Origin: a phage
Length of the DNA stretch: 238 nt
Strand: one strand, 5' to 3'
Sequence record: X58667.1
Part shown: positions 1 through 238 of the stretch, piece by piece
Layout: each line of letters starts with the position of its first letter
Position numbering within the stretch: position 1 is the stretch's first letter
Made by a program: the position numbers and the translations under genes
The notes under the pieces: generated by a model
The model's database searches: none
What the model was told of the DNA's origin: nothing
What the model saw: the letters and a program-made list of their open reading frames with translations, nothing else

Positions 1-56
1 GGATCCGTTGACCTGCAGGTCGACCCAGATCTGGGTCGACCGGTCGACCCAGATCC
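1..56. other. Synthetic multiple-cloning-site / linker region (BamHI 1-6, GTTGAC HincII-type 7-12, PstI 13-18, SalI 19-24, BglII 27-32, SalI 35-40, AgeI 39-44, SalI 43-48, AGATCC hybrid 51-56)
   Basis: Seen directly: eight or more 6-bp restriction recognition sequences tiled almost without gaps in 56 bp, far too dense for natural DNA. The first 24 bp (GGATCCGTTGACCTGCAGGTCGAC) resemble the symmetric BamHI-SalI-PstI-SalI polylinker of M13mp7/pUC7-type vectors with one base difference (GTTGAC rather than GTCGAC); this resemblance is recalled from memory, not searched. GC content drops sharply after about position 56. Confidence 0.8.
19..40. repeat. Perfect 22-bp palindrome GTCGACCCAGATCTGGGTCGAC (SalI-BglII-SalI linker); its left arm recurs as a 14-bp direct repeat GGTCGACCCAGATC at 18-31 and 42-55
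   Basis: Seen directly: the reverse complement of 19-40 is identical to itself, and positions 18-31 and 42-55 are identical. The pattern fits duplicated synthetic linker halves rather than a natural operator or mobile-element inverted repeat. Confidence 0.85.
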
Positions 57-95
57 ACTCGTTATTCTCGGACGAGTGTTCAGTAATGAACCTCT

Positions 96-101
96 GGAGA
101 G
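96..101 (+). promoter_or_regulatory. Shine-Dalgarno-like ribosome binding site (GGAGAG) for the ATG at 106
   Basis: Seen directly: GGAG at 96-99 (GGAGAG 96-101) lies 6 nt (4 nt from the extended motif) upstream of ATG 106-108, within the usual bacterial spacing range. Confidence 0.5.
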
Positions 102-105
102 AACC

Positions 106-238
106 ATGTATATGATCGTTATCTGGGTTGGACTTCTGCTTTTAAGCCCAGATAACTGGCCTGAATATGTTAATGAGAGAATCGGTATTCCTCATGTGTG
201 GCATGTTTTCGTCTTTGCTCTTGCATTTTCGCTAGCAA
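106..238 (+). CDS. Partial CDS (5' start in window, 3' end beyond window): hypothetical small hydrophobic/membrane protein, N-terminus MYMIVIWVGLLLLSPDNWPEYVNERIGIPHVWHVFVFALAFSLA...
   Basis: Seen directly: ATG at 106 with an upstream SD-like motif, and an open frame from 106 to the window end with no stop (44 full codons). The translation has a hydrophobic stretch at residues 1-13 (MYMIVIWVGLLLL), a polar/charged loop (SPDNWPEYVNERIG), then a second hydrophobic stretch (IPHVWHVFVFALAFSLA) still running at the window edge. Codon usage is AT-biased and includes AGA. No family assignment could be made from memory. The start is ambiguous: ATG 112 and GTG 76 are in the same frame, and the frame is open back to position 1. 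Confidence 0.55.
   Translation, partial: MYMIVIWVGLLLLSPDNWPEYVNERIGIPHVWHVFVFALAFSLA

What the first reader, a model, noticed from the sequence alone, without database searches (positions are those of the whole stretch)
1..238. ORF frame is stop-free from position 1 through the polylinker: possible designed in-frame fusion, true start ambiguous
The frame containing ATG 106 (codons at 1, 4, 7 ...) has no stop codon anywhere in the window. It reads GSVDLQVDPDLGRPVDPDPLVILGRVFSNEPLERT before the MYMIV... start. This could be coincidence, or the insert could have been placed in frame with an upstream vector start codon (for example a tag or reporter fragment) to make a fusion. The SD-like GGAGAG before ATG 106 argues that the native start is at 106.
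Basis: seen in the sequence. Interest (0 to 1): 0.4.

Follow-up and report, generated by a model that had tools for sequence, protein, structure and literature searches.

The report
Truncated lambda sieB behind cloning linkers
The window is a laboratory junction between stacked restriction-site linkers and a phage lambda BamHI fragment that starts one base inside the superinfection-exclusion gene sieB, so the open frame is partly uninformative linker and partly the gene's real N-terminal coding sequence; this is ordinary, known biology.

Summary
Frame 1 has no stop across all 238 bases, and GGAG sits 6 nt before ATG 106. It carries little information, though. Positions 1-51 are synthetic: an M13mp7/pUC7-type polylinker with one base change, followed by tandem SalI-BglII-SalI linkers. 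That stretch is stop-free in 5 of 6 frames. Positions 52-238 are 100% phage lambda 34500-34686, joined by a BglII/BamHI hybrid site (AGATCC). The lambda part is open because it is real coding sequence. Comparative evidence puts the full-length SieB start at lambda ATG 34497, whose G is the first base of the BamHI site, so the junction destroys it. ATG 106 (lambda 34554) lines up with the in-frame internal 'esc' start annotated in phage P22. The evidence is third-position-biased substitution (pN/pS 0.15), distant homologues colinear from that Met, and a conserved NEPLER-x-M motif. The sieB promoter is 31/31 identical to the annotated P22 promoter. It lies 35-65 bp left of the cut and is missing from the window. 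Nothing supports a designed fusion: the parental lacZ-alpha frame would enter as frame 2 and stop at 113. Sequence upstream of the window is unavailable, so a fusion is not excluded. Already known; low interest.

The parts
1..24 (.). M13mp7/pUC7-type polylinker: BamHI 1-6, mutated SalI (GTTGAC, still a HincII site) 7-12, PstI 13-18, SalI 19-24
   Evidence: Site map. It matches 23/24 to the intact polylinker ggatccgtcgacctgcaggtcgac in the engineered Ti plasmid pTi_EHA101.
18..41 (.). 24-nt palindromic SalI-BglII-SalI linker unit, GGTCGACC+CAGATCTG+GGTCGACC
   Evidence: Inverted repeat I2 and direct repeat D1; sites.
42..55 (.). Second half-copy of the same linker unit (GGTCGACCCAGATC), whose BglII end received the lambda BamHI end
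   Evidence: Direct repeat D1, 18-31 and 42-55, 100% identical.
51..56 (.). AGATCC, a BglII/BamHI hybrid junction. The native lambda ATG 34497-34499 is replaced by CCA (49-51).
   Evidence: Lambda identity starts at window 52 = lambda 34500. Native lambda reads aaATGGATCC at this point.
52..238 (+). Phage lambda 34500-34686, the 5' part of sieB without its promoter, RNA start and first codon
   Evidence: 100% identity to lambda in three collections; annotation.
52..105 (+). Codons 2-19 of full-length (179-aa) SieB, the conserved N-terminal segment DPLVILGRVFSNEPLERT
   Evidence: Variable columns 5/5/14 by codon position, pN/pS 0.15, colinear distant homologues.
96..101 (+). Shine-Dalgarno-like GGAGAG serving ATG 106. 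It doubles as the Leu-Glu-Arg codons of SieB.
   Evidence: Anti-SD duplex -6.4 kcal/mol. Annotated as RBS in OM418626. It becomes GGAA in 3 of 7 diverged loci through a synonymous GAG>GAA change.
106..108 (+). ATG = lambda 34554, the internal in-frame start (Esc-type). It is the first credible start left in this construct.
   Evidence: Pfam SieB profile position 1. The P22 esc annotation and the bridging homologue P0042 place the Esc start at this position.
106..238 (+). N-terminal 44 codons of the SieB family domain, containing the two hydrophobic segments
   Evidence: PF14163, 28.8 bits against a cut-off of 26; hydropathy.
231..236 (.). NheI site (lambda 34679-34684); the window ends 2 bases later
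   Evidence: Site map.

Best explanation
The window is a man-made junction. A lambda fragment beginning at the BamHI site at 34499 was ligated into the BglII site of a stack of SalI/BglII linkers. Those linkers sit in an M13mp7/pUC7-type polylinker. The cut falls one base inside the initiation codon of full-length SieB (ATG GAT CC). The construct therefore lacks the sieB promoter (lambda ~34434-34464), the RNA start (~34471) and the SieB ATG. It keeps SieB codons 2-19 and the internal Shine-Dalgarno plus ATG (window 96-108). By analogy with P22, that internal start would give the N-terminally truncated Esc-type product (160 aa). The stop-free frame upstream of ATG 106 therefore has two parts. 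The first is 17 linker codons that are open by composition. The second is 18 real SieB codons. The in-frame continuity between them is most likely accidental. Shown: the identity of the sequence, the junction, the linker anatomy, the coding signature of the extension, and the promoter homology. Inferred: that lambda makes both products, and that the construct was built for another purpose (for example a pL-type vector or a lambda vector arm in which cargo reads on the opposite strand).
For: Window 52-238 is 100% lambda 34500-34686. The junction is absent from viral, genome and metagenome contigs and from the plasmid, phage and E. coli collections. In native lambda the frame is open back to TAA 34407-34409, with ATG 34497 overlapping the BamHI site. 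The extension shows 5/5/14 variable columns by codon position, against 17/14/15 immediately upstream (chi-square p=0.009). It also has synonymous Leu CTC>TTA and Arg CGA>AGA changes. pN/pS is 0.15 in the sieB frame and 1.5-2.5 in the shifted frames. The MDPL ATG is conserved in 8 of 8 diverged loci, whereas the frame further upstream carries stops in several. About 12 representatives at 20-40% identity (171-182 aa) align from their own residue 1-11 to lambda residue 1-9, and they share F-x-NEP(L/V)E(R/K)-x-M. P22 annotates sieB 29758 and in-frame esc 29830 (Met25, at the first hydrophobic helix), plus a promoter and RNA start. The P22 promoter is 31/31 identical in lambda at 34434-34464. P0042 links P22 Met25 to lambda residue 22. 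Other laboratory junctions at the same lambda end carry their cargo on the opposite strand.
Against: No experimental mapping of the lambda SieB N-terminus could be read; the primary paper is not held. The Pfam SieB profile starts exactly at the Met of ATG 106, and that ATG has by far the best Shine-Dalgarno (-6.4 against -2.2 kcal/mol). The 160-aa form could therefore be the main product in lambda. The antisense frame that shares third positions also scores a low pN/pS (0.21), although it has no conserved start or stop. Sequence upstream of position 1 is unknown, so an upstream in-frame ATG cannot be ruled out. GGA TCC is also the reading frame of BamHI in many tag vectors (own knowledge).
Confidence: 0.8

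Rival explanations
1. Designed translational fusion. The lambda BamHI fragment was deliberately placed in frame with an upstream vector start codon, tag or reporter. The product would be X-GSVDLQVDPDLGRPVDP-SieB(2-179).
For: Frame 1 is continuous from position 1 into sieB. The BamHI site overlaps SieB codons 1-2, which makes it a natural fusion point. GGA TCC (Gly-Ser) is the usual BamHI frame in many tag vectors (own knowledge).
Against: The linker is open in 5 of 6 frames, and the chance that this frame is open is about 0.63, so continuity is uninformative. The linker is a redundant stack of duplicated 8-mer linkers with three SalI sites, which is not how a designed fusion joint looks. The lacZ-alpha frame of the parental M13mp7/pUC7 polylinker (...CCG GAT CCG TCG ACC TGC AGG..., own knowledge; polylinker identity) enters as frame 2 and stops at TGA 113-115. 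Comparable junctions at this lambda end carry cargo on the other strand.
Confidence: 0.08
2. ATG 106 is the only true native start (SieB = 160 aa). The open frame upstream in lambda is then non-coding leader, conserved for regulatory or RNA reasons.
For: Strong SD with ideal spacing. Pfam profile position 1 falls at this Met. One curated record and many NCBI proteins use the 160-aa form. Synonymous divergence in the upstream 19 codons is about half that of the gene body, which hints at a nucleotide-level constraint.
Against: Substitutions concentrate at third positions, with pN/pS 0.15 and multi-base synonymous codon changes. The SD itself is not conserved: GGAG becomes GGAA in 3 of 7 loci, while the Glu codon is kept. 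Homologues at 20-40% identity keep the peptide motif and start at the equivalent of 34497. The P22 precedent has SieB starting 24 codons upstream of the Met at the first helix.
Confidence: 0.15
3. The open frame is pure coincidence throughout, with no biological content upstream of ATG 106.
For: The chance of an open frame over 35 codons at this composition is about 0.25.
Against: This holds for 1-51 but not for 52-105, which shows a coding signature and family-wide protein conservation.
Confidence: 0.05

Closest known systems
Phage lambda sieB (the 'git' reading frame; Pfam PF14163 SieB)
   Same: Window 52-238 is 100% identical to lambda 34500-34686. The Pfam SieB model is hit above its gathering score. 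It is the same gene and the same frame.
   Different: The copy is truncated at the 5' end by the BamHI cut. The promoter, the RNA start and the ATG at 34497 are missing, and 17 linker codons are joined in frame instead.
Phage P22 sieB/esc nested genes (Ranade & Poteete 1993; annotation in NC_002371)
   Same: The same genomic position, between ral and the N/24 antiterminator gene on the opposite strand. The promoter is identical (31/31). The N-terminal architecture is the same: a segment of about 20-24 aa, then a Met at the first hydrophobic helix. In P22 that Met is the start of Esc, the truncated inhibitor of SieB.
   Different: Direct pairwise protein similarity between lambda and P22 is not significant. 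Homology shows only through intermediates (P0042). The lambda internal start has a strong SD and the P22 esc start has none. Production of Esc, and a sas-type antisense RNA, were not tested for lambda here.
M13mp7 / pUC7 / pUC4K symmetric polylinker
   Same: GGATCCGTCGACCTGCAGGTCGAC is matched at 23 of 24 bases.
   Different: C>T at window 9 destroys the first SalI site. After the second SalI site the sequence continues into SalI and BglII 8-mer linkers, not into GGATCC.
pKC30-type lambda pL expression plasmids and lambda 1059/EMBL-type replacement-vector right arms, which use the lambda BamHI 34499 end (own knowledge)
   Same: The same lambda end point. A precedent was found here: contaminant contigs join EcoRI R-M genes to lambda 34500 through an AGATCC junction, with the cargo on the strand opposite to sieB.
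   Different: The window's own linker arrangement matches no sequence in any collection searched. pL lies outside the window, so membership could not be tested.

Membership tests
SieB superinfection exclusion protein family (PF14163) | Match to the family profile above the curated threshold | tested here: met
   The window fragment scores 28.8 bits against a cut-off of 26. The full lambda ORF scores 103.5 bits, E 1e-29.
SieB superinfection exclusion protein family (PF14163) | Identity to the founding member, lambda sieB | tested here: met
   100% over window 52-238, equal to lambda 34500-34686.
SieB superinfection exclusion protein family (PF14163) | Abortive-infection / exclusion activity | not testable with these tools
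   This needs phage challenge assays. The truncated construct also lacks its promoter and the full-length start.
sieB/esc nested two-product gene (P22 paradigm) | In-frame internal start at the beginning of the first hydrophobic helix, about 20-24 codons after the SieB start | tested here: met
   In P22, sieB starts at 29758 and esc at 29830, with Met25 before LIILIVLIIV. In lambda, Met20 precedes YMIVIWVGLLLL. P0042 links P22 residue 25 to lambda residue 22. The Met is conserved in nearly all aligned family members.
sieB/esc nested two-product gene (P22 paradigm) | The upstream segment is translated, so the full-length product exists | tested here: met
   There is a coding signature and deep colinearity. 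The support is computational only.
sieB/esc nested two-product gene (P22 paradigm) | Own promoter and RNA start just upstream of the sieB ATG | tested here: met
   This holds for native lambda: 31/31 identity to the annotated P22 promoter, with the TSS equivalent at 34471. It is not present in the window, because it lies left of the BamHI cut.
sieB/esc nested two-product gene (P22 paradigm) | Esc polypeptide made and antagonising SieB; sas antisense RNA switch | not testable with these tools
   No Rfam family was hit. This needs protein and RNA experiments.
Designed translational fusion vector | Promoter, RBS and ATG or tag upstream in the same frame | not testable with these tools
   Sequence upstream of position 1 is not in the window, and the junction was not found in any collection.
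Designed translational fusion vector | The linker frame is specifically kept open for the fusion frame | tested here: not met
   5 of 6 frames are open. The only stop comes from a point change.
Designed translational fusion vector | The insert is in frame with the parental polylinker's reporter (lacZ-alpha) | tested here: not met
   The M13mp7 lacZ-alpha frame reads GAT CCG..., which is window frame 2, and that frame stops at 113. The polylinker reading frame is from own knowledge; the polylinker identity is.
M13mp7/pUC7 polylinker | BamHI-SalI-PstI-SalI palindromic sequence | tested here: met
   23/24 match; the first SalI site is mutated to GTTGAC.

The most novel reading that the evidence does not exclude
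Lambda, like P22, makes two proteins from sieB: a 179-aa SieB from ATG 34497 and a 160-aa Esc-type antagonist from ATG 34554. On this reading the RefSeq start (TTG 34482) is wrong. The unusually low synonymous divergence of the 19 codons between the two starts would reflect a conserved RNA-level switch (sas-like antisense RNA or translational control) shared across the enterobacterial SieB family. The cloned fragment would then be an accidental 'esc-only' allele.
Probability: 0.4. Interest if true: 0.3.

Novelty: already known. Interest (0 to 1): 0.1.

Why it matters
It matters little for biology. The case shows that an open frame running through a polylinker is not evidence of a designed fusion. 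It also shows that the 'obvious' SD+ATG in a cloned fragment can be an internal start of a gene whose real start was removed by the cloning site. One practical by-product is that public records disagree four ways on the lambda sieB start. The comparative evidence here favours ATG 34497 for the full-length protein, with ATG 34554 as the Esc-type start. That could correct the RefSeq annotation (TTG 34482).

Tried and rejected
- I searched for the exact junction or linker in IMG/VR, GTDB genome contigs and JGI metagenome contigs, in plasmids in distant mode, and in the paper library. There were no matches, so the specific vector is unidentified.
- I tried to read Ranade & Poteete 1993 and the lambda ribosome-profiling paper; neither is held. 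Literature searches for a lambda sieB promoter or start returned nothing usable.
- The consensus promoter/terminator scan found nothing in the window or around the lambda sieB 5' end. The scan also misses the annotated P22-type sieB promoter, so this negative result is weak.
- Rfam returned only a meaningless sub-threshold hit on the palindromic linker.
- I considered an antisense ORF as the source of the third-position bias. It was rejected because its start and stop are not conserved, although its pN/pS is also low.
- I considered the 10-nt inverted repeat at 118-127/147-156 as a conserved RNA structure. It was rejected because it is not conserved in homologues.
- Direct BLASTP of lambda against P22 SieB is not significant. 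Homology had to be bridged through P0042.
- NCBIfam holds no model for this protein.

Full report
**Observation.** Frame 1 of the window has no stop codon. GGAGAG lies at 96-101, and the GGAG core is 6 nt before ATG 106. Whether it means anything depends on what the two halves of the upstream stretch are.

**What the sequence is.** Window 52-238 is 100% identical to phage lambda 34500-34686, inside the gene annotated sieB (superinfection exclusion B). This holds in the phage, plasmid and E. coli collections. Identity begins exactly at the lambda BamHI site: native lambda reads aaATGGATCCactc, with GGATCC at 34499-34504.

Window 1-51 matches nothing natural. It consists of restriction sites:
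- BamHI at 1
- GTTGAC at 7
- PstI at 13
- SalI at 19, 35 and 43
- BglII at 27
- AGATCC at 51-56

Positions 1-24 match the M13mp7/pUC7/pUC4K polylinker at 23 of 24 bases. The intact version, ggatccgtcgacctgcaggtcgacggatccggggaattc, is present in the engineered Ti plasmid pTi_EHA101 next to a Tn903 kan cassette. Positions 18-41 form a 24-nt palindrome, GGTCGACC+CAGATCTG+GGTCGACC. Positions 42-55 repeat its first 14 bases. So two tandem SalI-BglII-SalI linker units are present, and the lambda BamHI end was ligated into the BglII site of the second one, giving the hybrid AGATCC. The exact junction is absent from IMG/VR, GTDB genome contigs and JGI metagenome contigs. This is a laboratory construct. 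I could not identify which one.

**Is the open frame more than chance?** For the linker it is not. At its composition (65% G+C) a given frame of 17 codons is open with probability about 0.63-0.65. In practice 5 of the 6 frames of the linker are stop-free. The sole stop (TGA 9-11, frame 3) was created by the C>T change in the first SalI site. Over all 35 codons the chance is about 0.25. Continuity of frame through the polylinker therefore says nothing about design.

**Why the lambda part (52-105) is open.** In native lambda the same frame runs back to a TAA at 34407-34409. It contains in-frame TTG 34482, ATG 34485 and ATG 34497 ahead of ATG 34554, which is window ATG 106. Public records disagree on the start:

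| Start | Record |
|---|---|
| 34482 | RefSeq, GeneMark prediction |
| 34485 | mEp332 |
| 34497 | V00638, 'reading frame GIT'; also the commonest NCBI/UniRef form, 179 aa |
| 34554 | lambda imm434, with GGAG annotated as RBS |

I tested the question by comparison, using seven diverged loci (54-75% protein identity) from metagenomes, genomes and IMG/VR.
- The 19 codons from ATG 34497 to ATG 34554 have 5, 5 and 14 variable columns (of 19 each) at codon positions 1, 2 and 3. The 60 bases immediately upstream have 17, 14 and 15 of 20 each, and several loci carry in-frame stops there. The minimum numbers of changes are 6/5/17 (chi-square p=0.009).
- There are multi-base synonymous replacements (Leu CTC>TTA, Arg CGA>AGA).
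- Nei-Gojobori pN/pS for the extension is 0.15 in the sieB frame. That is similar to the following 44 codons (0.07-0.15). It is 1.5-2.5 in the shifted frames.
- The antisense frame that shares third positions scores 0.21, but it has neither a conserved start nor a conserved stop.
- The MDPL ATG is present in 8 of 8 loci.
- The SD before ATG 106 is not itself conserved. GGAG becomes GGAA in 3 of 7 loci through a synonymous Glu change.

Deeper comparison agrees. An exhaustive search of 1.8 billion cluster representatives found about a dozen full-length relatives (171-182 aa, 20-40% identity). Their own residues 1-11 align to residues 1-9 of the lambda 179-aa form. In the alignment, the segment F-x-NEP(L/V)E(R/K)-x-M is among the best-conserved parts of the family. 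The Pfam profile does start at the Met of ATG 106. I read that as a domain boundary rather than as evidence about the start codon.

**The P22 paradigm.** The P22 RefSeq record annotates the following:
- a sieB promoter at 29690-29720
- a sieB RNA start at 29727
- sieB at 29758-30336 (192 aa)
- esc in the same frame at 29830-30336

Esc therefore begins at Met25, directly before the first hydrophobic helix (MLIILIVLIIV). Lambda Met20, encoded by ATG 34554, sits in the equivalent place before YMIVIWVGLLLL, and both proteins have two hydrophobic segments at similar positions.

Lambda and P22 SieB are not significantly similar by direct BLASTP. The representative P0042 bridges them. It is 38% identical to P22 SieB with a 24-residue offset. 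It also hits lambda at E=3e-12, with its residue 1 aligned to lambda residue 22.

The DNA upstream is nearly identical between the two phages. The annotated P22 promoter is 31/31 identical in lambda at 34434-34464, and the RNA-start equivalent is 34471. This agrees with my recollection of the Ranade & Poteete 1993 abstract (own knowledge; the paper is not held), which says the lambda sieB promoter was identified by homology to that of P22. A start near 34471 leaves a 26-nt leader for ATG 34497, compared with 31 nt in P22. It leaves only 10-13 nt for TTG 34482 or ATG 34485, which makes those two starts unlikely. A lambda interaction review lists Esc as 'encoded in frame in sieB' and inhibiting it (PMC3224144). 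A recent review summarises the P22 sas/SieB/Esc switch (PMC12197685).

**Consequence for the window.** The BamHI cut removes three things: the promoter (35-65 bp to the left), the RNA start, and the SieB ATG. The G of that ATG is the first G of GGATCC, and in the construct the codon reads CCA. What remains is:
- SieB codons 2-19, joined in frame to 17 linker codons
- the internal SD and ATG at 96-108
- the first 44 codons of the conserved domain

No other credible start lies in frame 1 upstream of 106; there is only a GTG at 76-78, with no real SD. Unless something upstream supplies a start in frame 1, the only product would be the 160-aa Esc-type protein. Transcription would have to come from vector sequences.

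**Was the fusion designed?** I found no positive evidence for it.
- The linker is a redundant stack with three SalI sites and a duplicated unit. That is typical of stepwise linker cloning.
- The lacZ-alpha frame of M13mp7/pUC7 (...AAT TCC CCG GAT CCG TCG ACC TGC AGG..., own knowledge) enters the window as frame 2. Frame 2 terminates at TGA 113-115 and is not in frame with sieB.
- There is a real-world precedent at the same lambda end. Four contaminant contigs in unrelated genome assemblies join lambda 34500 through an AGATCC junction to the 3' part of ecoRIR plus ecoRIM. Both genes lie on the strand opposite to sieB, that is, downstream of pL/N. In constructs of this type the polylinker side serves cargo read on the minus strand.
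- Against this, GGA TCC is the reading frame of BamHI in many tag vectors (own knowledge), and the sequence left of position 1 is unknown.

I put a designed fusion at about 8%.

**Verdict.** The window holds a cloning junction plus the N-terminal coding sequence of a known lambda gene whose start codon was removed by the restriction site. The resolution is that ATG 106 is most likely the internal Esc-type start, not the native SieB start. This is known biology (lambda sieB, P22 sieB/esc). The only small by-product is comparative support for ATG 34497 over the RefSeq TTG 34482.

Noticed in passing
L072, L073, L078, L087 (junction about 600 in L073); parent contigs NZ_AEJF01000097, NZ_ACLQ01000036, NZ_GG730307, NZ_DS990436: Four unrelated genome assemblies (Caballeronia, Capnocytophaga gingivalis ATCC 33624, Citrobacter youngae ATCC 29220, Helicobacter cinaedi) contain the same laboratory junction. 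Lambda 34500 onward is fused through AGATCC to the 3' part of ecoRIR plus ecoRIM, on the strand opposite to sieB. It looks like a pL-driven EcoRI methylase/endonuclease over-producer plasmid contaminating the assemblies, perhaps DNA from enzyme preparations.
   Followed up: partly
H1-H3 (plasmids), H37 (phages), L060-L071 (genome contigs): Whole lambda genomes (about 48.5 kb) are deposited as 'plasmids' of Salmonella, Stenotrophomonas and Paenibacillus sonchi and as 'Campylobacter phage CJLB-4'. Lambda contigs also occur in assemblies of Shewanella, Chromatium, Pseudomonas, Neobacillus and others. This is most likely control or spike-in DNA contamination.
   Followed up: no
window 9 (GTTGAC at 7-12): A single C>T difference from the M13mp7 polylinker destroys the first SalI site while keeping HincII. 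It creates the only stop codon in the linker (TGA 9-11, frame 3). It could be a real mutation or a sequencing error.
   Followed up: partly
lambda 34482 / 34485 / 34497 / 34554 (L001 583, 586, 598, 655): Four different in-frame start codons are annotated for lambda sieB in public records. The RefSeq TTG 34482 would leave only about a 10-nt leader after the promoter-homology RNA start (about 34471), and it is not conserved in homologues.
   Followed up: yes
window 52-105 compared with 106-237: Synonymous divergence in the 19-codon N-terminal segment (pS 0.29-0.44) is about half that of the next 44 codons (pS 0.70-0.86). This suggests an added nucleotide-level constraint, such as a translational-control element or the target of a sas-like antisense RNA. 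The sample is small.
   Followed up: no
window 118-127 / 147-156: A perfect 10-nt inverted repeat (GTTATCTGGG ... CCCAGATAAC, 19-nt loop) lies inside the first hydrophobic-helix codons. About 0.03 such repeats are expected by chance in 238 nt. It is not conserved in diverged homologues (2-9 of 10 pairs).
   Followed up: yes
window 231-238: The window ends 2 bases after an NheI site (lambda 34679-34684). As far as I recall this is the only NheI site in lambda, so the record may be a sequenced BamHI-NheI interval of a vector.
   Followed up: no
L045 (IMG/VR UViG_2534681933_000019), around 1440-1560: A lambda-like contig has several single-base indels in the sieB 5' region. The MDPL ATG is replaced by a stop and the ORF is frameshifted. 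This is probably sequencing error rather than a pseudogene.
   Followed up: no
L073 204-656, minus strand: In the EcoRI/lambda contaminant construct, a 150-aa minus-strand ORF starts at an ATG antisense to the sieB ATG-106 region and runs in frame across the junction into the C-terminal part of the EcoRI endonuclease. It is an accidental fusion ORF, which shows how easily such junctions stay open.
   Followed up: no
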